In this document: positions 4,775 to 23,049 of the stretch, piece after piece
How positions within the stretch are numbered: position 1 is the first letter of the stretch
Layout of the letters: each line of letters begins with the position of its first letter
DNA from: a virus
Reading direction: 5' to 3' (one strand)
DNA length: 24,829 nucleotides
UHGV virus genome: UHGV-0244087
The notes under the pieces: model-generated
The model's database searches: none
The model's input: the letters and a program-made list of their open reading frames with translations, nothing else
What the model was told of the DNA's origin: nothing
Position numbers and translations under genes: made by a program

Positions 4775-6655
4775 TTATGCTGCGGGATTATTGATTTCCA
4801 GCACCAGGCTGCCGATATCGACGCCGTACGCGGCATTTTTAGTGATATCAGTTAACGTCAGCGCATTCAGCCCCAGTGTCAGACTGTCTTTTATGACCTG
4901 GAATGCCGGGCCAGCCACTCCATTCAGTTTCGGAGTAACCGTGGCACTGCCGGCGGTGAACACCAGCTCCAGCGTCTGCCAGTCGTTACTGTAATTCCCG
5001 AACTCGCCCAACTTTGTGTTTCCGGCTTTCTTGTGATGCATCAGATTCAGTTTGCCGTCTGTGGTCTGGGTGAAGAACGACATCAGGAACGGGTTACCAG
5101 TCCCGGTCATCGCCACGACGTCAGGTAACGCTACATCGGTATACAGATAAATTCCCAGACCGAACTGGTTGTTGGTCAGTGCGCCTGACAGTCGAAACTT
5201 ACAGCTCAGTCTGCCACCCCGTGTCAGCAGGGAGACTGCGTCATCCACCGGATGCATCAGGGACCAGGTTTTATTGCTCTGCTTGGTAACCTTAAACACA
5301 CCATCTTCCAGCGCAACACTGCCGCCGGTGATGGTCCAGCCCTGCGCAGCAGCCTCTCCGGCTGTCGGCAGCAGGGAGACTGTACGAACGGATGTGTCAC
5401 CATCAGACGGCCCCGATGGAGTGTCGCCGCCGGGCGAGGGTTTAATCTCCGGTGCGGTACCGCTGATGAAGGCGCTGGTTCGACCAACTGCGTTCAGAAT
5501 AGCGGTTGCCAGGCGATCCGAAATAATGCTCCTGCGCGCCCATGAACTGAAATGTGTCGGACGATTTGACGATACCCAATTACCATTACTACGGGATTGC
5601 GCGCCGTAATAACCTGCATCAGCAATATCCGGGTCTTCTGCCGGTAAGTTGGTGGGCGTGTTGTTGCCGTTACCGTCGGTCATGAACGGCACAAAGAAAA
5701 CGTTGTCGCTCTCCCTGTTTTTGTACGCGCCGTAGACGGAGTCATACTGTGTGCCGTATGTGTTTTTCCAGTAATACGTCGTGTCGCCACAAATCCACGG
5801 TACAACTGCAGCACTGCCGCCATGGCACTGCGCGTTAAATCCGGAAAGGTCAGTACGGAACTGCTTCAGCATGGCCGTGAACAGGTCCGGTTGCTGTGCG
5901 TAGGTGGCAGCGCTCATGTCAAATTCGCCCTGCATCCAGCACACCGCCAGCAACACATTTTTCGGGTTCTTCTGTAATGCAGCTTTAGTGCGCGCAATCA
6001 GGTCCTGATATAACGGTTTACCCACACCCCAGCGCGCCGAATCCTGGCTGGCCCCCGTGGTCGTACTGAATGTTCCCTCCGCGCCCTGAGTGAATGCCGA
6101 ACCACCACGGCAGCATGGTACCAGCAGGATCCCCGCGTTATTCGGGATATACGGGAGCAGTTTTTTGGCAATATGTAAGCCCTGGCCGACACAGCCGTAC
6201 TGCCCTTTGCTCAGGTCTGCCTTCGGATGATTCAGTGCGCTCATATCCTGAACATCATGCAGGCAGTGGTCTGCCGGAATGATGTCGTTAAATGCGCATG
6301 CTTTACCACCGGGAGTCACTGTGTTGCGACGGGCCAGTTGCTTAATGCGTGGGTGGGGCGCATCGTAAGAATCCGGCAGCGGCATTCCATCACCATATGA
6401 CATGGCATTGGATTGACCAGCAAGTACCACCACGTAATACCACTCCGGCACGCTGCCGTGCTGGGGGGAATCAGGTGAGATGTCTGTAGTGCCATCGGCC
6501 ACCATTGCCTGCATTAGATACCACGGGGTGCCGGGTTCGTAGGCAACCCGCGTCTCCCCCTGAAGATGCCACCCTTTCGCAAGATGTTCATTCACCTTTT
6601 GAGTCAGTTCAGCCTGTGTCATGGCTGTAATCAGTGCAAAGTTCTTACTGGTCAT
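4775..6655 (-). CDS. NanS-p-like prophage esterase: N-terminal DUF1737-type domain, central sialate O-acetylesterase (SGNH/SASA) domain, C-terminal lectin-like domain
   Basis: 626 aa. N-terminus MTSKNFALITAMTQAELTQKVNEHLAKGW; esterase motif WYYVVVLAGQSNAMSYGDG. Start ATG overlaps the LysC stop, and the gene ends 23 nt before R, so it sits inside the late operon. Confidence 0.8.
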   Translation of the reverse strand: MTSKNFALITAMTQAELTQKVNEHLAKGWHLQGETRVAYEPGTPWYLMQAMVADGTTDISPDSPQHGSVPEWYYVVVLAGQSNAMSYGDGMPLPDSYDAPHPRIKQLARRNTVTPGGKACAFNDIIPADHCLHDVQDMSALNHPKADLSKGQYGCVGQGLHIAKKLLPYIPNNAGILLVPCCRGGSAFTQGAEGTFSTTTGASQDSARWGVGKPLYQDLIARTKAALQKNPKNVLLAVCWMQGEFDMSAATYAQQPDLFTAMLKQFRTDLSGFNAQCHGGSAAVVPWICGDTTYYWKNTYGTQYDSVYGAYKNRESDNVFFVPFMTDGNGNNTPTNLPAEDPDIADAGYYGAQSRSNGNWVSSNRPTHFSSWARRSIISDRLATAILNAVGRTSAFISGTAPEIKPSPGGDTPSGPSDGDTSVRTVSLLPTAGEAAAQGWTITGGSVALEDGVFKVTKQSNKTWSLMHPVDDAVSLLTRGGRLSCKFRLSGALTNNQFGLGIYLYTDVALPDVVAMTGTGNPFLMSFFTQTTDGKLNLMHHKKAGNTKLGEFGNYSNDWQTLELVFTAGSATVTPKLNGVAGPAFQVIKDSLTLGLNALTLTDITKNAAYGVDIGSLVLEINNPAA

Positions 6656-11612: not shown

Positions 11613-13364
11613 ATGATTCAGGACGCTTTTGTGCGCCAGCGTGCGCGGCAACTTTACTGGCAGGGTTATCCGCCCGCAGAAATATCACGTCTGATGGGAA
11701 TAAACCCGAACACGATTTATGCGTGGAAAAAACGCGACCAGTGGGATGAAACGCCACCCGTGCAGCGTGTCACGCAGTCCATCGATGCGCGCCTCATCCA
11801 GCTTACTGAAAAACAGAATAAAACAGGCGGTGACTTTAAGGAAATAGACCTGCTGACCCGGCAGCTTAAAAAACTGCATGATGGCCAGCCGGATGCGACG
11901 GCCACAGGAAAGAAAGGCCGGGCGAAAAAACTCAAAAATCATTTCACGCCGGAACAGATTGCCGCACTGCGGGAAAAAATCATCAGCAGGCTGGAGTGGC
12001 ATCAGCGGGGCTGGTTTGACTCCCTGACCCTTTGCAGGGAAGCCGGGATACGTAACAGGATGATCCTGAAATCCCGACAGATTGGCGCGACCTGGTATTT
12101 TGCACAGGAAGCACTGCTGATGGCGCTGCGTGACGATGTGGCGCAACCTTACCAGCGTAACCAGATTTTTTTGTCTGCGTCGCGTCGTCAGGCGTTCCAG
12201 TTTAAAAGCATTATTCAGAAGGCCGCGGCTGAAGTTGATGTGGAGCTGAAAGGGGGCGATAAAATCATCCTCTCCAACGGCGCAGAGCTGCATTTTCTCG
12301 GCACTTCTGCTGCGTCGGCGCAGTCCTATACGGGCAATTTTTATTTTGATGAATTTTTCTGGGTCAGTCGCTTTGCTGAACTGCGCAAGGTGGCTGGCGC
12401 TATGGCAACCCTCAGCGGACTGCGGCGCACCTACTTCTCCACGCCATCCACCGAAACGCACGAGGCATACGCCTACTGGAACGGCGACCGCTGGAACGAG
12501 AAAAAGGCCACGCATAAACGCCAGCGTTTTTCTGTGGACTGGAAAACGCTGCATAACGGGCTTATCTGCCCTGACCGGACGTGGCGGCAAATTGTCACGC
12601 TGGAAGATGTGGTTAATCACGGCTGGAAACACACCGATATTGATGAAATTCGTGATGAAAACACCGAAGACGAGTTCCTCAATCTCTATATGTGTGAGTT
12701 TGTCCGCGAAGGGGAATCGGCATTTAACCTGAATATCCTGATTGGCTGTGGTGTTGACGGATACGACGACTGGAAAGACTGGAAACCTTTTGCTCCCCGC
12801 CCGATGGGGAATCGTCCGGTATGGATTGGGTATGACGCAAACGGCAGCAGTGGCAACGGCGACAGCGGCGCTGTGTCCGTGGTGGTTCCTCCGTCTGTTC
12901 CTGGTGGCCGTTTTCGAACGGTGGAGACGCGACGCGTTCAGGGGCTGGAGTTTGAAGAACAGGCCAGAGTCATTGAAGAGTTCACGTGTCGCTACAACGT
13001 GGAACACATCGGCATTGATGTGACGGGCGGGAACGGGGAGGCTGTTTATCAGATAGTGAAACGGTTTTTCCCTGCTGCTATTCCGTACACCTTCACGCTG
13101 TCATCAAAACGGTCGCTGGTACTGAAAATGCTGCAAATAATGCGTGCCGGGCGGTGGGAATACGATCGCGCCGAACGCGAGCTGGTCGCAGCCTTTAACG
13201 CCGTGCGTAAGGTGAAAACACCGGGCGGCTTTATCACTTACGAAACGGACCGCGCGAGGGGGATCAGCCACGGCGACCTTGCGTGGGCAACCATGCTTGC
13301 TGTCATTAACGAACCAATTGGCGGCGAAGGAGAAAACGAGCGTTTCACAGTTATGGAGTTCTGA
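11613..13364 (+). CDS. P: Terminase ATPase (large) subunit P
   Basis: 583 aa, close to the 590-aa size of P2 gpP; AGGGGGAG ribosome-binding site; followed by Q with a TGATG overlap. Confidence 0.9.
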   Translation: MIQDAFVRQRARQLYWQGYPPAEISRLMGINPNTIYAWKKRDQWDETPPVQRVTQSIDARLIQLTEKQNKTGGDFKEIDLLTRQLKKLHDGQPDATATGKKGRAKKLKNHFTPEQIAALREKIISRLEWHQRGWFDSLTLCREAGIRNRMILKSRQIGATWYFAQEALLMALRDDVAQPYQRNQIFLSASRRQAFQFKSIIQKAAAEVDVELKGGDKIILSNGAELHFLGTSAASAQSYTGNFYFDEFFWVSRFAELRKVAGAMATLSGLRRTYFSTPSTETHEAYAYWNGDRWNEKKATHKRQRFSVDWKTLHNGLICPDRTWRQIVTLEDVVNHGWKHTDIDEIRDENTEDEFLNLYMCEFVREGESAFNLNILIGCGVDGYDDWKDWKPFAPRPMGNRPVWIGYDANGSSGNGDSGAVSVVVPPSVPGGRFRTVETRRVQGLEFEEQARVIEEFTCRYNVEHIGIDVTGGNGEAVYQIVKRFFPAAIPYTFTLSSKRSLVLKMLQIMRAGRWEYDRAERELVAAFNAVRKVKTPGGFITYETDRARGISHGDLAWATMLAVINEPIGGEGENERFTVMEF

Positions 13365-14410
13365 TGAGCAGAAAAAATAAAAAAGTGCGCATGAGTTCAC
13401 GCATTGATCTCGCTGATGCGCTCAGGAAAGAATCATCGCTCAGTGCATTCACATTTGATGGTCCTTATCGCCTGACCGGGCATGACCTGCTGGACAATAT
13501 GTACTGTGCTGATAACGGGCGGTGGTATGAAACCCCGGTGGACTGGTACGGTCTGGCAAGAGCAGCCCGGCAAACGTCCTGGCATCAGTCTGCGCTTTAC
13601 TTTAAGCGCAATGTATTACTCGGTTGCTACATCCCGCACCCGCTGCTTTCCCGGCAGGATTTCTCGGCGCTGGCGCTGGACTGGTTTGTGTTCGGTAACG
13701 CATTCCTTGAGCTTCGAAGCAATATGCTCGGCGAACCGCTTAAATTACGGCACGCCCTGGCGAAATACATGCGACGCGGAAGCGATCTTGAATCATGGTG
13801 GTATGTGCAGGATGGCAAGGACGCGTTTCAGTTTCGTCCTGGCAAAGTGTGCCACCTGATGAATCCGGATATTAACCAGGAAATCTACGGCATGCCGGAA
13901 TATCTTGGCGCATTACTCTCGGCCAGCCTTTCTCATTCGGCGGACATGTTCAGAAAACTGTACTACGACAACGGATCCCACGCCGGGTGCATCATCTACA
14001 TCGGTGCAGCGCAGGTAAACCGCGAAAGCATGGACTCCCTGAAAGAAACGCTACAGGGGGCACGTGGTGGTGGTGCGTTTAAAAACGTGCTCATTCATGC
14101 GCCCAACGGGGGCAAAGAGGGGGTGCAAATTTTGCCGTTCCAGCAGATCACCGCAAAAGATGAATTCATGAATGTTAAGGCGGCATCCCGTGATGATGTG
14201 CTGGCTGCGCACCGCGTTCCGCCGCAACTGATGGGGGCGATGCCGGGCGAAAAAAGTGCGTTTGGCGATGTGGAGAAGGCAGCGCGGGTTTACGCAATTA
14301 ACGAGCTGATGCCCGTCATGGAGGCTATGAAGCACATCAATGACTGGCTTGGCGAAGAGGTGATCCGTTTTAACTCTTATGCTCTTCTTGATGAAAAAAC
14401 AGCCCCGTGA
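13364..14410 (+). CDS. Q: Portal protein Q
   Basis: 348 aa; FTFDGP..WYETPV..GLAR resembles recalled P2 gpQ; sits downstream of P. Confidence 0.9.
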   Translation: MSRKNKKVRMSSRIDLADALRKESSLSAFTFDGPYRLTGHDLLDNMYCADNGRWYETPVDWYGLARAARQTSWHQSALYFKRNVLLGCYIPHPLLSRQDFSALALDWFVFGNAFLELRSNMLGEPLKLRHALAKYMRRGSDLESWWYVQDGKDAFQFRPGKVCHLMNPDINQEIYGMPEYLGALLSASLSHSADMFRKLYYDNGSHAGCIIYIGAAQVNRESMDSLKETLQGARGGGAFKNVLIHAPNGGKEGVQILPFQQITAKDEFMNVKAASRDDVLAAHRVPPQLMGAMPGEKSAFGDVEKAARVYAINELMPVMEAMKHINDWLGEEVIRFNSYALLDEKTAP

Positions 14411-14420
14411 TGGGGCTGTC
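14399..14420. terminator. Bidirectional intrinsic terminator between convergent Q and the 174-aa gene
   Basis: Perfect hairpin cagcccc-gtgat-ggggctg (14400-14418), flanked by an A-run upstream and a T-run downstream. Confidence 0.75.
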
Positions 14421-14424
14421 CTTT

Positions 14425-14949
14425 TTACCAGAGTTGAACCATTTTCTGGGTGCCGTCAGGCTTGAGATTATCAATTTCAGAGAGAACGTAATATTGAATG
14501 GCTTCACAAACGGTGGTGTAGGGTGAATTACCTTCTTTAAGTGGCACGATATTATTATTAACGCGAACCTGTATTTCATCGTTATACATTGCGATCGAAA
14601 CAGGCGTGTGCACGAACGCGACTTCGCCAGGTGTGTCGTCAACCACCGTTTCAATACTAAAAGTCAGTTTTCGCTCATCATTGCTGCCCCGTGCTTTGGG
14701 GGTAGCGGCAGGGATCTGGGATAAAGGCATTCTGCGAAATCCTTCGGCTGCTTCCAGTCCGCATGAAACGTAATGCTGGCGATTACCGTCGCTATCTGTC
14801 CAGGTCTGTGATGGCAGCTCCAGCGAGATTTCATAAGCATCAACAATGCCCTGGGCAAGGCGTACAAGCGGGGTCAGATCTTCATTGCGGCGAAAGCTCT
14901 CCTTTACCTGCTCCCGTTTTTCTCTTAACTGCTTGTAATTAATGACCAT
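14425..14949 (-). CDS. Hypothetical 174-aa protein, orphan cargo convergent with portal
   Basis: ATG at 14947-14949 with a GGAGG ribosome-binding site 8 nt upstream. No family recognised. Confidence 0.65.
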   Translation of the reverse strand: MVINYKQLREKREQVKESFRRNEDLTPLVRLAQGIVDAYEISLELPSQTWTDSDGNRQHYVSCGLEAAEGFRRMPLSQIPAATPKARGSNDERKLTFSIETVVDDTPGEVAFVHTPVSIAMYNDEIQVRVNNNIVPLKEGNSPYTTVCEAIQYYVLSEIDNLKPDGTQKMVQLW

Positions 14950-15048
14950 AAGACAGCCTCCATTGATTTCTTTGCTCGTATTTTGCACTTATGAAGTATG
15001 GTCGGCAAGGTGCCGTATCGCTGACGCGCTTCGCTTGTCTGCTGCTTC

Positions 15049-15077
15049 GCCGGGGCATAAAAAATTTATGCCCCGGC
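15049..15077. repeat. Perfect 29-bp palindrome in the non-coding stretch upstream of the 174-aa gene
   Basis: gccggggcat-aaaaaattt-atgccccggc, 10-bp arms extendable to 13 bp through the A/T loop. No U-tract follows on either strand. Confidence 0.7.
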
Positions 15078-15448
15078 TCTCCAGCTCCTGTATCAATCAG
15101 ATAATTTCACGACGCCTTCCAGTTTATCGCCACCATCGACGGTCAGACTCTTACGCAATTCCACCGCGTTGACTGTATGTTCTCGCTGCCTCAGTGCGAT
15201 TTTGACGGCCTTACCTTTCACCCCATCAAATCAAAAGCCCTCACGCCTTTTTCATGCTCAGCGTGAGAAATATGGCCATTCTGTTGTGTCTCTGCGACAT
15301 CGTTCAGGGAATGCTATTTACCCCCTGAAACGCGGGCTGTTCCCCCGTCACCTGCGCGCAGAAAAAGCGCGTTTTTTTGTGCACGCACGGATCCTTGACG
15401 GATCCAGCCGCCATGCGGGCCGGAAGGGTAAAAAGTCGTTCAAAAAAA

Positions 15449-15478
15449 TTGTGCAAATTTGTGCACTTTTGTGCAAAC
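15449..15478. repeat. Three tandem 10-bp iterons (TTGTGCA core)
   Basis: ttgtgcaaat, ttgtgcactt, ttgtgcaaac in direct succession; a fourth ttgtgca core lies at 15377-15383. Confidence 0.7.
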
Positions 15479-15480
15479 AA

Positions 15481-15505
15481 AAAGCGCCCCTGAGGCGCTT
15501 TAGTG
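15481..15505 (-). terminator. Intrinsic terminator ending the minus-strand cargo operon
   Basis: Hairpin agcgcc-cctga-ggcgct followed on the minus strand by a T-rich run (ttttgtttg); lies about 30 nt after the stop of the 87-aa gene. Confidence 0.65.
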
Positions 15506-15535
15506 TTTTATAGGTTGTGTATATTTGCTGGGTCC

Positions 15536-15799
15536 TTATCCTGCTGTGCTTTCAACTGATGAGGGGAACAAAATCTTTTCATCAAACCCTGCATTCATAT
15601 CATGGACAGCAACACACCAATCCATTGACGAACGATTATCAAGAGCCTCCATGATTTCATCCATGCGGCGCAGGTCATACAGGTAAATGCTTTTATCGCC
15701 AATGGTGTAAAAACCAATTTTTTTCGGTGATGGACAGCGATCAAGAACGTCCTGTAATTCGCTCAACCATGCTTGTTCTTTTTTTGTCAAAGTTGCCAT
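15536..15799 (-). CDS. Hypothetical 87-aa protein, fourth gene of the cargo operon
   Basis: ATG with an AAGGAGAG ribosome-binding site that is embedded in the last codons of the upstream gene. No family recognised. Confidence 0.6.
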   Translation of the reverse strand: MATLTKKEQAWLSELQDVLDRCPSPKKIGFYTIGDKSIYLYDLRRMDEIMEALDNRSSMDWCVAVHDMNAGFDEKILFPSSVESTAG

Positions 15800-15800
15800 A

Positions 15801-16292
15801 TCACTCTCCTTTGATGCGAATGCCAGTGGTACTCATTCTCCTGATTTCCCAGAGCACACGAGGAACACCACCGTTTCCGACCGGATCGCGTTTACTCCGC
15901 AGGGCGACGCTTGATTCCGCCCAGCTTTTTCTTGGAGGAAGCTCTTTCACACGAACAAAACCAGCTGCGCGGAGAGATGCTCCTGATTCATCTGCCTGGG
16001 TGTACGTAATACAACGTTGATAACCCATAGCCTTTGCTGCCCGCCAGACAGCACCATAAAGCGCGCTGTTAGCGTTGCGTTCTCCTGTGGTACATGTGCG
16101 ATTTACTTCAAGCGTTAATCCATCGTCCAAATGTCGTGCAACAGGTCTACCGGCTGTCGCCACACCTATCAATTCTCCGGCATCATTTCTCAGACCAATG
16201 CTGAATTTATGCCCCACCGGGGGTTTATTGTGTCGGTGATGTCTGGATATAAACGCCTTCGCAACACGAAGAGTAACCGGTGAAATTTGCAT
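15801..16292 (-). CDS. Hypothetical 163-aa protein, third gene of the cargo operon; possibly acyltransferase-like
   Basis: ATG at 16290-16292, 2 nt after the stop of the 104-aa gene, with the same embedded ribosome-binding site. A loose resemblance to GNAT-toxin N-terminal regions (FISRHHRHNKPP..IGVATAG) is not verified. Confidence 0.6.
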   Translation of the reverse strand: MQISPVTLRVAKAFISRHHRHNKPPVGHKFSIGLRNDAGELIGVATAGRPVARHLDDGLTLEVNRTCTTGERNANSALYGAVWRAAKAMGYQRCITYTQADESGASLRAAGFVRVKELPPRKSWAESSVALRSKRDPVGNGGVPRVLWEIRRMSTTGIRIKGE

Positions 16293-16294
16293 TC

Positions 16295-16609
16295 TCACTC
16301 TCCTTTGATGCCAATGTTTACAGACTGGCAAGCCTCTTTGAGCACCCAGTCAACAGCGTCTTTCCATGCTCCGGTTTCGACTGGCGGATTCTCACGCTTT
16401 ACCTGTTCATAGAAATGTACTGCTCTAACCAGTCCATCTGACGGTTTTGCCTGTAGTGCAGCCTGAGCTATGCGGTATGCCTGGAGCATACGGGCGTCGT
16501 TGATATCCATTCCGAACGGAATTTCTGATGATTGTGACTCTGCATCTTCAAGCCTGGCAATTTCTTTACGTAAGAAGTATTTCAACTCTTGTTTCTGTTT
16601 TCTGTTCAT
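16295..16609 (-). CDS. Hypothetical 104-aa helical protein, second gene of the cargo operon
   Basis: ATG overlaps the stop of the upstream gene (ATGA). C-terminus ...NIGIKGE parallels the ...GIRIKGE end of the next protein. Confidence 0.6.
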
Positions 16610-16938
16610 GCGTTTTTTTCCTTTTTGTCTGTCACTTCTTTCCTGATAATTTCATTGCACAAATCCACGCACTCATTGCAGATGTAAACAGACGGTCCGG
16701 CAATCACCTTTGTGACTTCGTACTGGGATTTATTGCAGAAGCTGCAATAAACCGTCTTCTCGCCTGAAGTCCATGTTTTGCTGGTTTCGCCAGACATCAG
16801 TTGTTTGAGGTCTTTTTCACGACGAAGAACTATCTGGCCACATTCAGCTATTTTTTGGATGTTGACATTTTCTTCTTTCGCCAGCGCTTCCATCCGCTCA
16901 ATCAGTCGCTGCGCTTTTTCTCTGTCAATGTGTTGCAT
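16606..16938 (-). CDS. 110-aa protein with a C-terminal ClpX-type C4 zinc-binding domain and an N-terminal helical region
   Basis: [41 protein letters not shown] is near-identical in pattern to the recalled E. coli ClpX N-terminal domain ([40 protein letters not shown]), with the same C-x2-C-x18-C-x2-C spacing. ATG with an AGGGGGA ribosome-binding site. Confidence 0.75.
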
Positions 16939-16972
16939 TGTGTCCCCCTTGTTTATGCTCCCGGGTTAAAGT

Positions 16973-16996
16973 CATCAGGGCGGATGCGCCCTGATG
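16973..16996. other. Perfect 10-bp-stem hairpin between parR and the zinc-binding-domain gene
   Basis: catcagggcg-gatg-cgccctgatg. No U-tract follows on the minus strand, so it is unlikely to be a simple terminator. Confidence 0.6.
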
Positions 16997-17001
16997 TTGT
17001 G

Positions 17002-17313
17002 TTATTCGGGAAATAACGCCCGGATATTTCCGGCCATCTGACTGGTTATCTGTGCGGCTGATACTGGCTGTGACGCGGGGCGTTCTGTCCTGGTTTGTGT
17101 CATTGATAACGCCTCATCATCAGCCCATGCAGCCAGTCGGTAAGCCTCTGCCGGATTCATTTTCAGTAGTGCCAGCCCGGCCAGAAAAGCCACGCGTTGA
17201 CCACTTTTGCGGGCTTCTGGTGTAAGGCTGTCCAGCCAGGCGCATGCTTCGCCTTCGTTCTTGACGGCGGCGGGCTTCAGATAGAAACTTATCCGTCTGG
17301 TTGGTGTCGTCAT
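17002..17313 (-). CDS. parR: ParR (StbB)-like centromere-binding protein
   Basis: 103 aa; RRISFYLKP..LDSLTPEARKS..AFLAGLALL..NIRALFPE parallels recalled R1 ParR (RRTIAFKLNP..LDSIPQGERSR..LTAGLALY..LRSLFPKE). AAGGAG ribosome-binding site; start 5 nt after the parM stop. Confidence 0.75.
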   Translation of the reverse strand: MTTPTRRISFYLKPAAVKNEGEACAWLDSLTPEARKSGQRVAFLAGLALLKMNPAEAYRLAAWADDEALSMTQTRTERPASQPVSAAQITSQMAGNIRALFPE

Positions 17314-17317
17314 TGGT

Positions 17318-18277
17318 TTACTCCTTGCCCATTGCGTACAGCCCATTAACCAGAGCAAACTGTGGCACCCCGTCCGCGATGAAAGTCGCATTAACTCCGC
17401 AGGCTTCGCGGATAGCGGGTGCCACAATCTCTGCCCCGCCACCGACAACCATCACCCGCCCGTAACCCGAAAAACCCGCCAGCGCGCGGATCACGCGTTG
17501 TTTCAGTGTTTCTTCCTTTTCACGAATAACCGCCATCAGGCTGGCGTAATGCGCGTCATTGTGGATGTGCTGGCGCAGCCAGGCTTCATCATGGCGATGT
17601 TCGATAATGGTATTGGCGATGTGGTGACTGGTACGCATACCGTTAGTGGCCATCACCGACAGTACGGCATCGGCCATCAGGGAAACGCCTACGTGTGGAT
17701 CGCAAAACACCTGGCTGATACCTGCCAGTTGTCCCTGAACCTTTGCCACATCCAGCGTGGTTCCGCCTAAATCCACAATCAGCAGGGATTCAAACGGACT
17801 CATGTCAGCCAGTGCCTTAAAGCCAGCCGGAATGGATTCAGGCATAACCCGTACGTTACGGATAGTGAATGCTTCGCCGTTCTGGTACTCCACCGGGCGC
17901 ATAACGTTCGCTTTTTTGCGGTTGATGTTGGCTATGTCCGGCTGTGCGTTTGTGTCGAAATACTCGCTCAGTGGCAGGGTGACAACCACATCCACCTCCT
18001 GTGGCGTGATGCCTGATTTGACCAGCGCGTGATGAATGGCAATGACATTCACATCGCTGTACTGGTATTGCGTGTCAGTCGTCTGGACAAAGCGATCGCT
18101 GACCGGATCAAAACCATAGCGCACGCCATCAAGCATGTAGTTCGCGGGCTGCGTGCCACCGAACGGCGCAGACCATTCCGACTTGAAGCTGTTCGGGCTG
18201 ATGGCGTTGCGGCGTTCGCCGTTCTCAGTCCATGCCAGCTTGATGTTGGTGGAGCCGTCATCGATACAAATTTTCAT
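17318..18277 (-). CDS. parM: ParM (StbA)-like actin-family ATPase
   Basis: 319 aa; MKICIDDGSTNIKL..ISPNSFK..YSDVNVIAIHHAL..VMPESIPAG..LIVDLGGTTLD..VGGGAE tracks recalled R1 ParM along its length. Confidence 0.85.
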   Translation of the reverse strand: MKICIDDGSTNIKLAWTENGERRNAISPNSFKSEWSAPFGGTQPANYMLDGVRYGFDPVSDRFVQTTDTQYQYSDVNVIAIHHALVKSGITPQEVDVVVTLPLSEYFDTNAQPDIANINRKKANVMRPVEYQNGEAFTIRNVRVMPESIPAGFKALADMSPFESLLIVDLGGTTLDVAKVQGQLAGISQVFCDPHVGVSLMADAVLSVMATNGMRTSHHIANTIIEHRHDEAWLRQHIHNDAHYASLMAVIREKEETLKQRVIRALAGFSGYGRVMVVGGGAEIVAPAIREACGVNATFIADGVPQFALVNGLYAMGKE

Positions 18278-18307
18278 GTCGCTTTTCCTTATGTTGATTA
18301 ATTAATC

Positions 18308-18418
18308 GTTTACGGGATTCTGAAATCCCGTTTTTGCCTGTTTTATGCGCGCTTCATATATCGCGGCGCGTTTTTTGCTCATTTACGGGATTTGTGAATC
18401 CCGTTTCTGTCTGTTTTT
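18308..18418. repeat. Two direct copies of a ~37-bp element, each with an 8-bp inverted repeat (acgggatt..aatcccgt) followed by a T-rich tail
   Basis: Copy 1 at 18308-18344 (gtttacgggattctgaaatcccgtttttgcctgtttt) and copy 2 at 18382-18418, 74 bp apart. They lie just upstream of parM, and copy 2 overlaps the last codons of A. Confidence 0.75.
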
Positions 18419-21176
18419 TGTTTCCACTGGTCAGGCCACCCCGCAGCAGGTCTGCTTTGCGGCGGGCGCGTTCAGTGGTTTCACTGATTCTCTGTGCGTG
18501 CTCTGCGTCGCGGATGGCGCGCAGCATGTCAGAAAGCACGGTAACGGGTGTTTTCATGGTGTTCTGGTCTTGCTGAAGTGTGGATGCCAGGCGTGCGGCG
18601 GCTTCGGGGTCTGATGCCCTCAGCTGTTCCAGATAGCTGGCGACCGGGTTATGGCGGATCTCCGTACTGCTTACGCCGTGGTTACGGCTCAGGCGCTGCC
18701 AGAGCTGCGTGATCCGGCTGTCCGGTCGGGTATCCGGTTTGCGTACAATTTCAAATCCCTGCGGTGCAATGATGCTGCCGTCAACGTACAGACTGCCGCC
18801 CCGTAACAGGTGCTGCATCTGCTGTTCACCGATATGCAGGCCGAGAGATTCGGCAGATTCCCGCCATTCTTTAGCGAGTAATTCGTGGTTATCAGGCAAA
18901 GGCCGCTGCTGTTTGCGGCTCTGTGTCCAGCTCTGCATTTCATCACTGCTGTTTTTTGCCTGTTTGTCACGAAGCGAACGCATCAGCGCCCGGCGTTCGT
19001 GCCGTTTCAGTGAGCGCATCCATTCGTTCACGTCAACGCCGTCAGGAAGCTGCGGCCACGGTGCTGGCCGTTCTTCCGGCTGTTCTGTCCCGTTGTTGTC
19101 CGTTTCCTGTACACGGGGACAGTTATTGCCACGAGTCCAAGGGGCGGCATGGCCGCCCTGAAGGTCAAAACCATTTTCGCGGGCGTTGTCTTCTGGTTCT
19201 GGTTTACGTCTTACCAACTTCCAGTTATCCGGATGCGTGCACACACGGGAGGATTCCCCGATGAGTGGTGACCAGATCCCGTAAATCTGTACGCTCTGTT
19301 CGCCGTAATCGTTCAGCTCATCTGCGAGGTCGTAGGCGGTGCGAATCAGGTAGTCCTTGCGTGGAACAAGCACGCCACCCTGTTTTTCAATGTAGGAGGC
19401 AAAACACCCGGCATCAGCGGCAGCGAGTACCGCATCCATTGCATCATCCTTCAGCCGTTGCGGGCCTTCCGGGTTGCGTGCCATCTGGCTGGCAAGGCGG
19501 CGGAGTTCACGCCATACCTGACGGGAGGGGATGCCAAAGAACTGGAACTGGCGGACCCGATGAAGACGCGCCCAGCCAATGGCGCGCTCCACGCTCTCGG
19601 CCATTGATTTTCCGGTTTCGTGGTCAACGCGTGGCTTGCCCGTTTTCGGGTCGATGCCATCTACGGCGCGGCTGTCCAGGTTTTTTCCGATGTAGGTCGC
19701 GATATAGCTGGTTGGTGTGCCTTTTGAGCCGTCGACATACTCCGCCTTAAAGCGCGGAGTAATATCATCGCCCAGTTCGTGACGATCTTCCTGAATGGCA
19801 ATATCGCGGGTGATGGCCACGATGCTGTCGATTTCTTCCGGATGAGCAAAGACCATCATATGCCAGTGCACGGTGCCGTCATGGTGAGGCTCCACCGTGC
19901 GGATGCCATACCAGCGCAGGCCGTCGCGGTTCAGTTTTTTGCGGACTGCCGCAAAAAACGTGTTAACCAGGTAATCGCTGGAGTCGCGCATGGTGGCCCC
20001 GTTCCATTTGGGGTTCGGATGACCGTTCTCCGTTGTTGCGTGGTATTTTGACGGGCAGGTGACGGTCAGAAACACCGCTCTGTCGCTACGGGCTTCGGCC
20101 AGAAGTTCCAGTCCCTTCATGGTGGCCATCATTTCTGCCTTACGGTGAACCGGGTTACTTACTCCCGCGTAATACACCGTCTCGAGATCAATCGTGAACC
20201 CGTCTTCATTTTCCAGCATGAAACTTTTCAGGAAATCGCGTGTTTTCTCGCGCTGTGCGCGAAACTCGCTTAACGCGTCCTGGCTCAGATAGGGCGATGT
20301 TTTTCTGGAAACCAGACAGGCGGCGCGGAGTTGTTCTTCTCTCCACTCGCAACGTAACAGCCACAGTTTGCGTTTCCACCATTCCGCACAGGTCAGGCGG
20401 AGGATTGCGCCCGGCAGCAGCTCCGTGTCCGGTTCGTTCCTCCGGTCTTTGTCTGTTGTCAGTGCGTCATAATGTGGAGGCATGGCGTGCAGGTGTAACG
20501 CCATGCGGGCCAGCATCTGATACGCCTTCAGCGTTACATCCATGGTCAGTTCGCCATCAGTCGCGCCAAAGCCATCGCAGAGTTTTTCGAAGGTGCTGCT
20601 GAACATCGCCGCCGTCATGGTGGCCAGCGTCTGTATCTGGTGTTTGTTGAGCTGCGGCAGGTAAAGCAAATCGTCCAGGCGTTCGCGTCCGGCAAGGGAG
20701 CGATAACCCGGTGTCAGCCAGCGTCTGTCAGTGCGATCCAGACGTTCGAATATTTTGCGCAGGGTTCCGCGTGCATAGCGTTCCGCCTGCCAGCTCTTTT
20801 TGCCTTTCCGGCGATCGGCTTCCTGTTTTTTGCGCAGGAAGGAGAGGTGGCGAATAAGCGGATCGCGCAGATAGGACGGCAGCAGGCGCAGCGAGGCCAT
20901 GGCTTCATCCACCGCGCCGCGTGCCCGTTTTCTGGCGTCTCCTGCCAGTGTGATGGTTTTGTCCTGTTTTTCCTGTGCGTCCAGGCTTTTATTAATCAGG
21001 TTGCCCAGCGGTGTGGCGGAGAACGCCGCATCAGCCATTTCCTGGCGGCGTTCGTTCTCTGCCCGGTAGGCATCCAGCCAGGAGGAAAGTGCGGATTCAG
21101 GTGCGGGGATCTCCGTTCCTTCACGTCCTACTGCGTGGCGCGGTTGTTGCCAGTCCCTGATGTACTCTGCCGTCAT
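18354..21176 (-). CDS. A: Replication initiation endonuclease A (rolling-circle), with a long C-terminal extension
   Basis: 940 aa, recognised as P2 gpA-like from overall sequence and position downstream of the early-region ORFs; ATG start. Recalled P2 gpA is 761 aa. Confidence 0.85.
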   Translation of the reverse strand: MTAEYIRDWQQPRHAVGREGTEIPAPESALSSWLDAYRAENERRQEMADAAFSATPLGNLINKSLDAQEKQDKTITLAGDARKRARGAVDEAMASLRLLPSYLRDPLIRHLSFLRKKQEADRRKGKKSWQAERYARGTLRKIFERLDRTDRRWLTPGYRSLAGRERLDDLLYLPQLNKHQIQTLATMTAAMFSSTFEKLCDGFGATDGELTMDVTLKAYQMLARMALHLHAMPPHYDALTTDKDRRNEPDTELLPGAILRLTCAEWWKRKLWLLRCEWREEQLRAACLVSRKTSPYLSQDALSEFRAQREKTRDFLKSFMLENEDGFTIDLETVYYAGVSNPVHRKAEMMATMKGLELLAEARSDRAVFLTVTCPSKYHATTENGHPNPKWNGATMRDSSDYLVNTFFAAVRKKLNRDGLRWYGIRTVEPHHDGTVHWHMMVFAHPEEIDSIVAITRDIAIQEDRHELGDDITPRFKAEYVDGSKGTPTSYIATYIGKNLDSRAVDGIDPKTGKPRVDHETGKSMAESVERAIGWARLHRVRQFQFFGIPSRQVWRELRRLASQMARNPEGPQRLKDDAMDAVLAAADAGCFASYIEKQGGVLVPRKDYLIRTAYDLADELNDYGEQSVQIYGIWSPLIGESSRVCTHPDNWKLVRRKPEPEDNARENGFDLQGGHAAPWTRGNNCPRVQETDNNGTEQPEERPAPWPQLPDGVDVNEWMRSLKRHERRALMRSLRDKQAKNSSDEMQSWTQSRKQQRPLPDNHELLAKEWRESAESLGLHIGEQQMQHLLRGGSLYVDGSIIAPQGFEIVRKPDTRPDSRITQLWQRLSRNHGVSSTEIRHNPVASYLEQLRASDPEAAARLASTLQQDQNTMKTPVTVLSDMLRAIRDAEHAQRISETTERARRKADLLRGGLTSGNKKQTETGFTNPVNEQKTRRDI

Positions 21177-21182
21177 AGTGAT

Positions 21183-21548
21183 TTACTTCGTCATGCCATT
21201 CAGGGTGTCGCGGCAGACTGTAGCCAGCCGCTGAATTTCCAGCACGGTGTCTTCTGTGTCGGCATGGCGATGTGTGATGCGGATGCTGTCGGCAATCACA
21301 TCGACGATTGCAGAGGATGGGCGCTGGTAAATGCCAATAACGGACGGGGTGCCACCTTCAATGCGGTAAAGCCTGTAATTTCCCTCGTGGCTGTCAATCA
21401 TGTAGCGACCATCAATAACAATCTTTCCGTCAGCGAGCTGCGGTACAGGCAGGGATTTCAGGTACATGTCATAACGATCACGCACGCGAGCGGCAAGATC
21501 ACGTTCTGTGTTGAGCAGGTATTCAAGAAAGTCGTTGGCGAGAATCAT
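21183..21548 (-). CDS. Hypothetical 121-aa early-region protein immediately upstream of A
   Basis: ORF ending 7 nt before the A start; no family recognised. Confidence 0.55.
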   Translation of the reverse strand: MILANDFLEYLLNTERDLAARVRDRYDMYLKSLPVPQLADGKIVIDGRYMIDSHEGNYRLYRIEGGTPSVIGIYQRPSSAIVDVIADSIRITHRHADTEDTVLEIQRLATVCRDTLNGMTK

Positions 21549-21620
21549 TGCGGCAATCCTCTTGTTACAGATGTGCGAAGGCCTCCCGCCGCAAGGTGCA
21601 GGAAAGGCCCGGAACAGGAA

Positions 21621-21851
21621 TTAATGGAGTTTGTTTTGCTGCTGGATGAGCTGTTGAAGCTCGCGCAGATCATCCGCCAGATAGCTGAAAACAGCGGCGG
21701 AATAGATGTTTGATAGTGCGTGGCTGCGCTCATGCAGCATATTGATGTGCATGATATGCGCGACGCGGAATGCGCGGAAAAGTCTGCGGTTGATTTCAGT
21801 CTGGATGTGACGACGCGCAGCGTATGCGCGCTGTTGTTTGCGGTTTGCCAT
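21621..21851 (-). CDS. Hypothetical 76-aa basic protein
   Basis: ORF with a weak GAGG ribosome-binding site; arginine-rich N-terminus; no family recognised. Confidence 0.4.
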   Translation of the reverse strand: MANRKQQRAYAARRHIQTEINRRLFRAFRVAHIMHINMLHERSHALSNIYSAAVFSYLADDLRELQQLIQQQNKLH

Positions 21852-22030
21852 GGGGTGGCCTCGTACGTAGTAAGTTTTAAAAACTCACCATCCAGAGGTT
21901 CCAAGCTCGGGGTGGTGAGACGTACAGGGTTGGAACTACCGGCTACGCACGAATCCGGCCCGACCGAAGTCGGCCCCATACGCCCCACCATAATTCTGAC
22001 GCGAAAAAGACGTGGCGATACGGTACGCAC

Positions 22031-22051
22031 AAAAAAACCGCTGGCGCGGTT
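22031..22051 (-). terminator. Intrinsic terminator (minus strand) inside the non-coding island
   Basis: Hairpin aaccgc-gcca-gcggtt followed on the minus strand by a run of seven T. Confidence 0.6.
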
Positions 22052-22187
22052 GTGCGCGTGCATAGTCAGCGGGGTTCCAATCCCGGCACCCGTTTTATGA
22101 GGTGCAGCGGAAATGTAACCTGACTGATTGCGGCATGGCAAGCGGTTTTTTTGTGAGAACGGCATACTAAAAAATCCTGATACTGCT

Positions 22188-22218: not shown

Positions 22219-23049
22219 TTACTTCACCGGAACAAACGGAACAGCGGTGTTACTGGTCATGTATTGCGGTAGCGTGCCGTTCCATTTGTTAATCGCTTCC
22301 AGCTCCATAACGCCGGGATTCTGGCGCAGAGCTTCGCCGCGTAAACGAATGGCGTCGGCTTCAGCCTGGGCTTTTGTGCGAATGGCATCGGCTTGTCCGG
22401 CAGCTTCTGCGCGCAGCATGTTGGCTTCAGCTTCGCGTTGCTTGACTTCCTGTTCACGTTGCAGGGTTTTCTGGTTTGCCGTGACTTTGGCGTTAATGCT
22501 GTCGATAACGGTTGGCGGATATTCCGGTTTACCGACATAAGAGAGGCTCATGACCTGAATACCGATGGGGGTCATCTCTTCCTGAATATCTTTAAGTGCT
22601 GAATCCAGCAGTTCAGACTTACCACCGTCGATAAACTTATCGGTGGTCATTTTGCTGGCCAGTCGGTTGAGTGCATCGGCGATCTTCTGGCGCAGGTCAG
22701 TGTCGGTAATGTCGTCCACGCCTTTGCGGTAGGTCTGAAACACCGTGGTAACTTTGGATGGATCAACTTTGTAGGCCACGCCGATGTGATAGCCGATGGT
22801 TGTGCCGTCACTCATCTGAAAGCTGAACGGCTCATCGTAGGTCTTCATTTGTTTGAAGGTCGGGAAGATGTAAACCTCGGTATTCCAGCCAGTCCAGTAG
22901 CGACCAACGCCAACCACTTCGCCAACGCCTTTGTCGTCGCCCAGCTTGTTGACTTTGATGCCCATATTACCTGGCTCAACGCGATCGCAGCCAACCAGCA
23001 GGATGGCGGCAAAAAGCGGGAGAATCTGAAAGAGTCTGAATTTCTTCAT
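22219..23049 (-). CDS. SPFH/band-7 (prohibitin/HflC-like) lipoprotein
   Basis: 276 aa; N-terminus MKKFRLFQILPLFAAILLVGC (signal peptide plus lipobox); band-7 core followed by an Ala/Glu/Arg-rich coiled coil (EAEANMLRAEAAGQADAIRTKAQAEADAIR). Confidence 0.75.
   Translation of the reverse strand: MKKFRLFQILPLFAAILLVGCDRVEPGNMGIKVNKLGDDKGVGEVVGVGRYWTGWNTEVYIFPTFKQMKTYDEPFSFQMSDGTTIGYHIGVAYKVDPSKVTTVFQTYRKGVDDITDTDLRQKIADALNRLASKMTTDKFIDGGKSELLDSALKDIQEEMTPIGIQVMSLSYVGKPEYPPTVIDSINAKVTANQKTLQREQEVKQREAEANMLRAEAAGQADAIRTKAQAEADAIRLRGEALRQNPGVMELEAINKWNGTLPQYMTSNTAVPFVPVK

What the first reader, a model, noticed from the sequence alone, without database searches (positions are those of the whole stretch)
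15536..16938. Uncharacterised four-gene operon in the variable region between portal and replication gene A
Four small genes (110, 104, 163 and 87 aa) are chained on the minus strand with overlapping or 2-nt-spaced stops and starts, then closed by an intrinsic terminator at 15481-15505. The first protein carries a ClpX-type zinc-binding domain. I could not place the other three in any family; the 163-aa protein has only a loose acyltransferase-like resemblance. In P2 this slot holds old and tin, and in P2-like prophages generally it is a hotspot for anti-phage and host-manipulation cargo. This is the best candidate in the window for an undescribed system.
Basis: partly seen in the sequence, partly recalled or inferred. 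Interest (0 to 1): 0.85.

Follow-up and report, generated by a model that had tools for sequence, protein, structure and literature searches.

The report
Mosaic accessory genes, not one system
The four small genes are real. They are a patchwork of independently swapped phage accessory genes at the end of a P2-like prophage's early operon, not one new system, but two of them are good untested leads: a short relative of the phage Mu DNA-modifying enzyme Mom, and a stand-alone copy of the ClpX substrate-docking domain.

Summary
Four minus-strand ORFs (110, 104, 163 and 87 aa) are chained with a 4-nt overlap and 2-nt and 1-nt gaps, and end at an intrinsic terminator at 15501-15481.

The "one undescribed system" reading fails its own refutation test. 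Among 5,426 complete E. coli genomes, g1 is in 112, g3 in 154 and g4 in 978, but the whole block is in only 33. Linkage of g3 to g2 and g4 disappears once g3 homologues fall below 90% identity. Phage P88 itself has only g1 and g2. The g3+g4 segment is an 809-bp insertion, and g3 is bracketed by an exact 17-nt repeat (GCATCAAAGGAGAGTGA) that carries the stop codon and the next gene's ribosome-binding site.

- **g1:** a stand-alone ClpX zinc-binding domain, about 81% identical to the host's.
- **g2:** its C-terminal three-quarters is shared with a gene in a lambdoid phage accessory-gene array.
- **g3:** an XF1762-family GNAT distantly related to Mu Mom. It keeps the equivalents of the essential R111 and S124 but lacks R151 and the essential helix-turn-helix-like insertion.
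- **g4:** an orphan restricted to Enterobacterales.

No PADLOC defence model matches any of the four. This is ordinary mosaic cargo containing two catalogued but uncharacterised families.

The parts
16606..16938 (-). g1: 110-aa protein made of a ~57-aa N-terminal region of unknown fold plus a ClpX-type C4 zinc-binding domain (ZBD, residues ~64-99). It has no AAA+ module.
   Evidence: Pfam PF06689 E 6.8e-18. PDB 1ovx/2ds5 (E. coli ClpX ZBD) E 7e-20. The ZBD core is almost invariant among the phage homologues and is shared with E. coli ClpX, while the N-terminal region drops to 43% identity. RefSeq names it 'ClpX C4-type zinc finger protein'.
16295..16609 (-). g2: 104-aa protein of unknown function. 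Its start overlaps the g1 stop. Its C-terminal ~75 residues are a module shared with a gene in a lambdoid phage accessory-gene array.
   Evidence: phrog_26213 and phrog_660, both of unknown function, and no Pfam hit. It is 94% identical to the 112-aa P88 gene and 62% identical over residues 30-104 to gene 893 of lambdoid phage 689R5. No match in the PDB.
15801..16292 (-). g3: 163-aa GNAT-fold protein of the XF1762 family, a short and distant relative of phage Mu Mom. Residues 153-163 are a disordered junction tail.
   Evidence: NCBIfam NF045478 204.7 bits (cutoff 50). phrog_1384 'Mom-like DNA modification protein' 4e-42. Pfam Mom 22.4 bits, below the gathering score of 27.1. AF2 model pLDDT 83.7. 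The best PDB fold match is Mu Mom 8bv8. hhalign against a Mom alignment gives 97.8% probability.
15536..15799 (-). g4: 87-aa orphan protein (helix, two strands, two helices, strand), restricted to Enterobacterales.
15481..15501 (-). Intrinsic terminator closing the gene chain.
   Evidence: 9-bp stem, 3-nt loop and a T-rich tail. The P88 homology breakpoint at 15489/15490 falls inside it.
16295..16311 (-). Junction repeat copy 1 (GCATCAAAGGAGAGTGA). It encodes the ...IKGE-stop end of g2 and carries the Shine-Dalgarno sequence for g3.
   Evidence: Exact 17-mer present twice in the window, with 0 expected by chance. The same junction flanks g3 homologues in most of the 80 IMG/VR loci.
15801..15817 (-). 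Junction repeat copy 2. It encodes the ...IKGE-stop end of g3 and carries the Shine-Dalgarno sequence for g4.
   Evidence: In other loci at least 7 different genes follow this junction.
15490..16298 (-). 809-bp g3+g4 cassette. It is an insertion relative to phage P88, where it replaces 53 bp.
   Evidence: blastn of the window against P88. The P88 g2 homologue reads through the junction ('...GIKGDLAQPASKL').
16973..16996 (.). Perfect 10-bp hairpin between parR and g1. On the minus strand it has no T tail.
17002..18277 (-). parM/parR (StbA/StbB-type) partition genes immediately upstream on the same strand. g1 almost always travels with them.
   Evidence: Pfam StbA_N, ParM and Plasmid_stab_B. Co-occurrence in IMG/VR loci.

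Best explanation
The locus is the distal end of the early (replication) operon of a P88-type, P2-like E. coli prophage: gpA-like replication gene, parM, parR, g1, g2, g3, g4, terminator. The four genes are not one machine. They are a string of independently exchangeable accessory genes drawn from the pool that also fills the early accessory-gene arrays of P22-like, lambdoid and P1-like temperate phages.

Shown: g1 and g2 belong to the P88 backbone. g3+g4 is an 809-bp insertion, and g3 is bracketed by an exact 17-nt junction repeat that encodes '...IKGE-stop' and the next gene's ribosome-binding site.

Inferred: this junction gives translational coupling and also serves as a homology patch for swapping cassettes.

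Most likely individual roles, all inferred:
- g3 is a self-sufficient Mom-type GNAT that transfers an acyl or aminoacyl group onto a nucleic acid, most likely phage DNA, to blunt host restriction. It may use an aminoacyl-tRNA donor as Mom does, but its target specificity or chemistry probably differs from Mom's.
- g1 is a free copy of the ClpX N-domain. It would act as a decoy, or pair with the ClpX N-domain, at the site where lambda O, SspB and RssB bind, and so re-tune ClpXP proteolysis during lytic growth.
- g2 and g4 are small early accessory proteins of the kind found in lambdoid and P22-like early gene arrays. Their function is unknown.
For: Mosaicism:
- Counts in 5,426 complete E. coli genomes are g1 112, full-length g2 94, g3 154, g4 978 and the whole block 33.
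- IMG/VR loci show many different combinations of the four genes.
- g3 linkage to g2 and g4 is 32/40 and 31/40 at >=95% identity, 0/15 and 3/15 at 90-95%, and 0/17 below 90%.
- P88 has only g1 and g2, and the breakpoints are mapped.
- The 17-nt junction is present twice in the window against 0 expected. It recurs around g3 homologues with at least 7 different downstream genes.
- UTI89 has a fifth gene appended after g4.
- g3 lies between xis and recT in the P22-like phage Kapi1. g4 lies beside Ea22-annotated genes in phage 689R5. g1-like genes lie among ead/Ea22-like genes on a 94-kb plasmid that also carries a Ref-family nuclease gene.

g3:
- It scores 204.7 bits against the NCBIfam XF1762 family.
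- The best PDB fold match is Mu Mom 8bv8 (E 2e-7, TM-score 0.71-0.73). Profile-profile comparison with Mom homologues gives 97.8% probability and E 8.5e-13.
- The equivalents of Mom H58, R111, N121 and S124 (H19, R65, N73, S76) are >=90% conserved across 136 representatives clustered at 50% identity. R111 and S124 are essential in Mom (PMC13219725).
- 79 of the 136 representatives hit Pfam Mom.
- Rare fusions join the domain to C5 and D12 DNA methylases, PAPS reductase, the ArdC N-domain, YodL/LPD28 and DUF4316.
- Relatives are 55-70% identical across several bacterial phyla and have no conserved neighbour, which fits a single-gene function.

g1:
- All four zinc-ligand cysteines are present, and so are the residues aligned with F16 and I46 of the ClpX hydrophobic patch. 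That patch overlaps the lambda O site and is bound by SspB, RssB and trigger factor (PMC7804408).
- The ZBD stays about 81% identical to the host protein, yet blastn finds no DNA similarity to chromosomal clpX. That pattern indicates purifying selection rather than recent capture.

Transcription: the terminator is confirmed and no sigma-70-like site lies between parR and g1.
Against: - No function was tested, so every role above is an inference.
- g3 falls below Pfam's gathering score for Mom (22.4 against 27.1).
- g3 lacks the equivalent of Mom R151, and by manual alignment Y159. It also lacks the helix-turn-helix-like insertion whose deletion abolishes Mom activity (PMC13219725). DNA may therefore not be its substrate.
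- The fusion proteins come from metagenomic gene calls and are few, 1 or 2 per partner.
- No paper in the held library describes a phage ZBD protein. Inhibition of ClpXP by free ZBD added in trans is recalled from older literature and was not verified here.
- The promoter scan is a crude consensus search, so an internal promoter or expression in the lysogen is not excluded.
- g1 and the N-terminal part of g2 are nearly always adjacent, so a g1-g2 functional pair is not excluded.
Confidence: 0.6

Rival explanations
1. The four genes form a single, undescribed anti-phage defence or host-manipulation system carried in the P2 old/tin slot.
For: The genes are tightly chained and share one terminator. 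They sit in the variable slot between gene A and the portal. GC is lower than in the backbone. From established knowledge of P2, this slot holds old and tin and is a hotspot for defence cargo.
Against: Co-occurrence fails. The block is in 33 genomes while single genes are in 112, 154 and 978. Linkage vanishes with divergence. P88 lacks g3 and g4. Distant g3 loci contain no g1, g2 or g4. No PADLOC model matches. No promoter was found that would allow expression in the lysogen.
Confidence: 0.05
2. g3 is a GNAT-type toxin of the TacT/AtaT class, which acetylates charged tRNA, and g2 or g4 is its antitoxin. The block would then be an addiction module sitting next to the partition genes.
For: The layout resembles GNAT/RHH type II modules: a ~160-aa GNAT with small overlapping neighbours, beside parMR stability genes. 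Mom-lineage enzymes do handle aminoacyl-tRNA (PMC13219725).
Against: g3 occurs without g2 and g4 in most diverged loci and across phyla. Neither g2 nor g4 has an RHH or any other antitoxin-type Pfam domain. TacT and AtaT are not among the 50 best PDB fold matches, whereas Mom is first. Neither PADLOC nor NCBIfam gives a toxin-family hit.
Confidence: 0.06
3. g3 is a true functional orthologue of Mu Mom and makes the same N6-carbamoylmethyl-adenine. g1, a zinc-finger protein, plays the role of Com, the translational activator of mom.
For: The homology to Mom is real, and the R111 and S124 equivalents are conserved. In Mu, a small zinc-finger gene (com) precedes mom.
Against: R151 and the insertion spanning residues 175-209 are both essential in Mom and both absent here (PMC13219725). 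The Pfam Mom score is below its cutoff. g1 is a ClpX-type finger about 81% identical to the host ZBD, not a Com-type finger. g1 and g3 co-occur in at most 33 of the 112 genomes with g1 and the 154 with g3. g3 is not adjacent to g1.
Confidence: 0.08
4. Some of the ORFs, especially g2 and g4, are decaying remnants with no function, kept only by hitch-hiking.
For: They have no recognisable domains, g4 has no fold match, and the gene combinations are highly mosaic.
Against: g4 is kept at 87 aa across many enterobacterial genera at 55-78% identity, with invariant motifs (RCPSPxK, YD.R) and a confident fold prediction. It is present in 978 E. coli genomes. g2 keeps an intact frame and a coupled start in P88 and in the window.
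Confidence: 0.07

Closest known systems
Phage Mu Mom (Pfam PF25680; PDB 8bv8), the Gly-tRNA-dependent GNAT that hypermodifies adenine N6 in dsDNA
   Same: g3 has the GNAT fold, and Mom is its best structural match. The two families are homologous at the profile level. The equivalents of H58, R111, N121 and S124 are conserved. Both have an RN-x-x-S motif where canonical GNATs have the glycine-rich CoA pyrophosphate loop (read from the alignments). Both have an insertion between strands beta6 and beta7. Like Mom, g3 is a single gene with no conserved partner.
   Different: g3 is 163 aa against 241 aa. It lacks Mom's first 39 residues, including the basic 11-19 stretch, and the basic C-terminal tail. 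R151 aligns with S103 and Y59 with R20, and by manual alignment Y159 corresponds to L107. The essential helix-turn-helix-like insertion (Mom 175-209) is replaced by a ~26-residue loop of low model confidence. g3 sits in an early operon, not in a late, Com/Dam/OxyR-controlled one. Its Pfam score is below the gathering cutoff.
N-terminal zinc-binding domain of E. coli ClpX (Pfam PF06689; PDB 1ovx, 2ds5)
   Same: g1 residues ~64-100 are about 81% identical to the host domain. All four zinc-ligand cysteines are present, as are the residues aligned with F16 and I46 of the adaptor- and substrate-binding patch (PMC7804408).
   Different: There is no AAA+ unfoldase module. A phage-specific ~57-residue N-terminal region takes its place. 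The gene is carried by prophages and by plasmids rather than being the chromosomal clpX, and shows no detectable DNA similarity to it.
Accessory-gene arrays of lambdoid and P22-like phages (exo-xis / 'ea' region; Ead/Ea22-like genes)
   Same: g3 and g4 are found in such arrays in Kapi1, 689R5, Stx-converting phages and others. They share the conserved '...GI(R/K)IKGE-stop-ATG' junctions. The C-terminal module of g2 is 62% identical to a 689R5 array gene. Genes of the lambda exo-xis region are early-expressed and modulate the lysis-lysogeny decision (abstracts of PMC8614690 and PMC7093339).
   Different: Here the array is grafted onto the end of a P2-like early operon, downstream of parMR. None of the four proteins matched a solved structure of an exo-xis protein or a Pfam Ead/Ea22 model.
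The P2 old/tin slot, a defence-cargo hotspot of P2-like prophages
   Same: The genomic position is the same, between replication gene A and the portal gene (P2 gene order from established knowledge).
   Different: old and tin are lysogen-expressed exclusion genes. Here the genes continue the early operon without a recognisable promoter of their own, and no defence model matches them.
GNAT toxins of type II toxin-antitoxin systems (TacT, AtaT)
   Same: They are small GNATs that act on aminoacyl-tRNA and have small neighbouring genes.
   Different: g3 has no cognate antitoxin domain and no stable partner gene, and these toxins are not among its best fold matches.

Membership tests
XF1762 family (NCBIfam NF045478), tested on g3 | Whole-protein score above the curated cutoff of 50 bits | tested here: met
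   204.7 bits, E 5e-61, covering model positions 2-130 of 143. RefSeq uses the same name for this gene.
Mom family (Pfam PF25680), tested on g3 | Score above the Pfam gathering threshold of 27.1 bits | tested here: not met
   22.4 bits, E 1.1e-4, covering only profile positions 3-124 of 202. 79 of 136 diverse relatives hit the model at E<=1e-3, with a best E-value of 9e-9.
Mom family, tested on g3 | Homology to Mom at profile and fold level | tested here: met
   hhalign 97.8% probability, E 8.5e-13 over 103 columns. Foldseek ranks 8bv8 first, with E 2e-7 and TM-score 0.71-0.73. HMM-to-sequence search of the PDB does not reach Mom.
Mom family, tested on g3 | Catalytic residues R111 and S124, essential in Mu Mom (PMC13219725) | tested here: met
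   They align with R65 and S76, which are invariant in the close family and >=90% conserved across 136 representatives. H58 aligns with H19 and N121 with N73, both also conserved.
Mom family, tested on g3 | R151 (essential) and Y159 | tested here: not met
   R151 aligns with S103. By manual alignment of the motif ending in NF/GF, Y159 corresponds to L107. The loop that carries R151 is 4 residues shorter in g3.
Mom family, tested on g3 | Helix-turn-helix-like insertion at residues ~175-209, whose deletion abolishes activity (PMC13219725) | tested here: not met
   The AF2 model has only a ~26-residue loop between beta6 and beta7 (residues 119-144) with one 4-residue helix and pLDDT 52-62. The profile alignment stops at Mom residue 151.
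Mom family, tested on g3 | Catalytic activity: Gly-tRNA-dependent modification of adenine N6 in dsDNA | not testable with these tools
   This needs LC-MS/MS of nucleosides and in vitro assays.
ClpX zinc-binding domain (Pfam PF06689), tested on g1 | Domain score above 27 bits and four zinc-ligand cysteines | tested here: met
   64.7 bits. C65, C68, C87 and C90 are invariant. E 7e-20 to PDB 1ovx.
ClpX unfoldase (NCBIfam TIGR00382), tested on g1 | AAA+ ATPase module, with a full-length score of at least 370.75 bits | tested here: not met
   51 bits, covering only model positions 6-54 of 414. The protein is 110 aa long.
Known anti-phage defence systems (PADLOC-DB v2.0.0) | Any component model matching g1, g2, g3 or g4 | tested here: not met
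   No family at E<=0.1 for any of the four proteins or for their neighbours.
A conserved multi-gene system (operon as a functional unit) | Co-occurrence of the component genes beyond close relatives | tested here: not met
GNAT/RHH type II toxin-antitoxin module | A cognate antitoxin gene stably adjacent to the GNAT | tested here: not met
   g2 and g4 have no Pfam domain, and adjacency is lost below 90% identity.

The most novel reading that the evidence does not exclude
g3 represents a second and much more widespread branch of Mom-type enzymes: short, stand-alone XF1762-family GNATs with about 3,300 clusters at 50% identity across several bacterial phyla. On this reading they install a not-yet-described acyl or aminoacyl modification on DNA or another nucleic acid as a counter-restriction device. 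Independently, g1 would be a phage-made decoy of the ClpX substrate- and adaptor-docking domain, a way of re-tuning host ClpXP that I did not find described.
Probability: 0.2. Interest if true: 0.75.

Novelty: new member of a known kind. Interest (0 to 1): 0.38.

Why it matters
As a "new four-gene system" the finding does not hold, and knowing that saves cloning the block as a unit. Three things are worth keeping.

1. The window gives a very clean example of how phage accessory genes are shuffled. An exact 17-nt junction holds the stop codon and the next gene's ribosome-binding site, and it brackets a cassette that moves between P2-like, lambdoid and P22-like phages.
2. The XF1762 family keeps Mom's essential arginine and serine but lacks its DNA-gripping insertion. 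It is highly conserved across phyla and is occasionally fused to DNA methylases and ArdC-type anti-restriction modules. Mom's chemistry was only solved in 2026, so a large sister family is an obvious place to look for new nucleic-acid modifications.
3. A stand-alone ClpX N-domain kept about 81% identical to the host's by selection is a testable candidate for viral interference with ClpXP substrate selection.

Tried and rejected
- **Defence system:** the PADLOC scan gave no hits.
- **Conserved operon:** rejected by the genome counts and by the decay of linkage with divergence.
- **Conserved partner of g3 in distant genomes:** all-against-all clustering of flanking ORFs in 23 loci found only g3 itself, plus ORFs in other frames that overlap it.
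- **Com/Mom analogy for g1 and g3:** rejected because g1 is a ClpX-type finger and the two genes rarely co-occur.
- **GNAT toxin-antitoxin module:** rejected.
- **Direct sequence search of the PDB:** with g3 alone and with a 136-sequence profile it did not reach Mom. Only profile-profile and fold comparison did.
- **g2 and g4 against the PDB by sequence:** nothing.
- **Rfam over 14300-18500:** nothing.
- **Literature:** no hits for XF1762, and nothing on function for phage ClpX zinc-finger proteins, Mom-like prophage genes or PhiR44.
- **Recent capture of the ZBD from host clpX:** rejected, because blastn in distant mode does not hit chromosomal clpX.
Full report
**Observation**

The four minus-strand ORFs are present as described:
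- g1: 16938-16606, 110 aa
- g2: 16609-16295, 104 aa
- g3: 16292-15801, 163 aa
- g4: 15799-15536, 87 aa

g1 and g2 overlap in ATGA. g2/g3 are 2 nt apart and g3/g4 are 1 nt apart. A 9-bp hairpin with a T tail closes the chain at 15501-15481 on the minus strand.

The flanks are a P2-family portal (13364-14410, plus strand) and a gpA-type replication protein (21176-18354). P2-type capsid, terminase and baseplate genes lie further left. Directly upstream on the same strand are parM and parR. No sigma-70-like site was found between parR and g1. The only feature there is a perfect 10-bp hairpin at 16973-16996, which has no T tail in the minus-strand direction. GC across g1-g4 is 42-49% (about 50-53% over g3), against 53-60% in the backbone.

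**Source**

The region is 100% identical to Escherichia phage PhiR44_2. About half of it (54%) matches phage P88 (Peduoviridae, Xuanwuvirus) at 97% identity. The same block is present in UTI89, ST131 strains and other E. coli. RefSeq names g1 "ClpX C4-type zinc finger protein", g3 "XF1762 family protein", and g2 and g4 "hypothetical".

**Is it one system?**

No.
- Among 5,426 complete E. coli genomes, g1 is in 112, full-length g2 in 94 (fragments in 1,018), g3 in 154 and g4 in 978. The whole block is in 33.
- In IMG/VR loci retrieved separately with each protein, many combinations occur: g3 alone, g4 alone, g1 alone with parMR, g1+g2, g1+g2+g4, and g2-like+g3+g4 outside any P2 context.
- Linkage decays with divergence. 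For g3 homologues at >=95% identity, 32 of 40 have a g2-like gene and 31 of 40 have g4. At 90-95% the figures are 0 of 15 and 3 of 15. Below 90% they are 0 of 17 for both.
- In 23 genomes from other genera and phyla that carry a g3 relative, no flanking gene family recurs, and g1, g2 and g4 are absent apart from one weak partial g2-like hit.
- No PADLOC model matches any of the proteins.

**How the block was built**

P88 has g1 and a 112-aa g2 that is 94% identical over 104 residues but reads on past the junction ("...GIKGDLAQPASKL"). Against P88, window 16299-18400 and 15021-15489 are collinear, while 15490-16298 (g3+g4, 809 bp) replaces 53 bp.

g3 is bracketed by two exact copies of GCATCAAAGGAGAGTGA, at 16311-16295 and 15817-15801, with none expected by chance. 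This motif encodes the C-terminal "...IKGE", the stop codon and the Shine-Dalgarno sequence of the next gene. The same junction flanks g3 homologues in most IMG/VR loci, with at least seven different genes following it. Unrelated array proteins end the same way; for example, 689R5 gene 889 ends in "...VAGIRIKGE". The last 11 residues of g3 are disordered in the model. I infer that the junction acts both as a translational coupler and as a homology patch for cassette exchange.

The donors are early accessory-gene arrays of other temperate phages:
- g3 is Kapi1_007, between xis and recT, just downstream of an Ead/Ea22-like gene.
- g4 sits beside Ea22-annotated genes in phage 689R5.
- Residues 30-104 of g2 are 62% identical to a 689R5 array gene.
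- Related ZBD proteins lie among ead/Ea22-like genes on a 94-kb plasmid that also carries a Ref-family nuclease gene.
- UTI89 has a fifth gene appended after g4.

**g3**

Family placement:
- NCBIfam XF1762 family: 204.7 bits against a cutoff of 50.
- phrog_1384 "Mom-like DNA modification protein": E 4e-42.
- Pfam Mom: only 22.4 bits, below the gathering score of 27.1.

The family is large. The word-indexed search found 5,663 proteins. The exhaustive search found 3,313 clusters at 50% identity with E<=1e-3, typically about 150 aa long. Relatives are 55-70% identical across Proteobacteria, Clostridia, Actinobacteria and Acidobacteria.

The AF2 model (pLDDT 83.7) has GNAT topology. Its best PDB match is the crystal structure of Mu Mom (8bv8, E 2e-7, TM-score 0.71-0.73), ahead of generic acetyltransferases. 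A profile-profile comparison with nine Mom homologues gives 97.8% probability and E 8.5e-13.

The residue mapping from that alignment is:

| Mu Mom residue | g3 residue | Note |
|---|---|---|
| H58 | H19 | conserved |
| Y59 | R20 | changed |
| R111 | R65 | conserved; essential in Mom |
| N121 | N73 | conserved |
| S124 | S76 | conserved; essential in Mom |
| D149 | D101 | variable in the family; the adjacent E102 is conserved |
| R151 | S103 | changed; essential in Mom |

H19, R65, N73, S76 and E102 are >=90% conserved over 136 diverse representatives.

According to PMC13219725, Mom transfers glycine from Gly-tRNA(Gly) to adenine N6 in dsDNA. R111, S124 and R151 are essential, and so is a helix-turn-helix-like insertion at residues 175-209. 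g3 therefore keeps two of the three essential residues but lacks R151 and the insertion. In place of the insertion it has only a ~26-residue loop of low model confidence. It also lacks Mom's N-terminal 39 residues.

Rare fusion partners of the domain point to DNA modification or anti-restriction: C5 and D12 DNA methylases, PAPS reductase, the ArdC N-domain, YodL/LPD28 and DUF4316. These are few and come from metagenomic gene calls.

I conclude that g3 is a member of the XF1762 family and a homologue of Mom, but not a Mom orthologue. A self-sufficient nucleic-acid acyl- or aminoacyl-transferase used for counter-restriction is the most likely role (about 45%). Its substrate is unknown.

**g1**

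Residues 64-99 are a ClpX C4 zinc-binding domain (Pfam 64.7 bits; E 7e-20 to PDB 1ovx). Identity to E. coli ClpX is about 81% over the core. The four cysteines are present, and so are the residues aligned with F16 and I46 of the hydrophobic patch. That patch overlaps the lambda O site and is bound by SspB, RssB and trigger factor (PMC7804408).

Among the phage homologues the domain is almost invariant, while the N-terminal ~57 residues drop to 43% identity. blastn finds no similarity to chromosomal clpX. The resemblance to the host protein is therefore kept by selection and is not the result of recent capture.

The full-length family is confined to Escherichia and Salmonella and was formerly mis-named "carboxylate--amine ligase". 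In the loci examined, g1 nearly always travels with parM, parR and gene A.

I infer a decoy, or a heterodimerising mimic, of the ClpX docking domain (about 40%). No paper describing such a protein was found.

**g2 and g4**

g2 has no Pfam or PDB match. g4 is restricted to Enterobacterales (143 clusters). It has invariant RCPSPxK and YD.R motifs and a confident small alpha/beta model, but no significant fold match. Both look like genuine small early accessory proteins of unknown role.

**Verdict**

The locus is an ordinary, and instructive, mosaic string of accessory genes at the end of a P2-like early operon. It contains two catalogued but uncharacterised families (XF1762 Mom-like GNAT, stand-alone ClpX ZBD) that deserve single-gene experiments.

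Noticed in passing
window 17002-18277 (minus strand): A complete parM/parR (StbA/StbB-type actin-like) partition pair sits inside the early operon of a P2-like prophage, directly after the gpA-type replication gene. It is also present in phage P88 and in UTI89. This suggests that P88-type phages may be able to persist as plasmids, or once could.
   Followed up: partly
window 14425-14949 (minus strand): A 174-aa orphan gene (phrog_5091; no Pfam or PADLOC hit) is a second insertion relative to P88, lying between the portal terminator and the region downstream of the g4 terminator. It is present in 397 of 5,426 E. coli genomes and appears to be a separate transcription unit. It may be a better candidate for lysogen-expressed cargo than g1-g4.
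   Followed up: partly
window 4775-6655 (minus strand): A 626-aa protein with DUF1737, SASA (sialate O-acetylesterase) and DUF6645 domains lies in the late region of this P2-like prophage. From memory it resembles the NanS-p esterases of Stx phages.
   Followed up: no
window 22219-23049 and 21545-22165 (minus strand): An SPFH/Band-7 protein and an Ash-family protein lie in the early region upstream of gene A.
   Followed up: no
window 15440-15475: Three closely spaced TGCACAA repeats, including the palindrome GTGCACAAATTTGCAC, lie just downstream of the g4 terminator. This may be a protein-binding site. Its function is unknown.
   Followed up: no
window ~15335-15352: On the minus strand, GGTGACGGGGGAACAGCC resembles the P2/186 cohesive-end sequence as I remember it. 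If this is cos, g1-g4 lie at the right end of the virion DNA, where P2 carries old and tin. Not tested.
   Followed up: no
L324 (NZ_CP085065.1, 94-kb plasmid) 3315-3638: A related 107-aa 'ClpX C4-type zinc finger protein' sits among ead/Ea22-like genes on a plasmid that also carries a Ref-family nuclease gene, and about 105 plasmid copies exist in E. coli. Stand-alone ZBD genes therefore circulate in several temperate-phage lineages.
   Followed up: partly
L322 (UTI89) 2716-2976: The UTI89 version of the block has a fifth small gene (86 aa, hypothetical) appended after g4. This is a further sign of cassette addition at this end of the operon.
   Followed up: no
proteins P0428, P0389, P0490, P0463: Metagenomic proteins fuse an XF1762-type GNAT domain to a C5 DNA methylase, a D12 adenine methylase, a PAPS reductase domain, or YodL/LPD28 polyvalent-protein modules.
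   Followed up: partly
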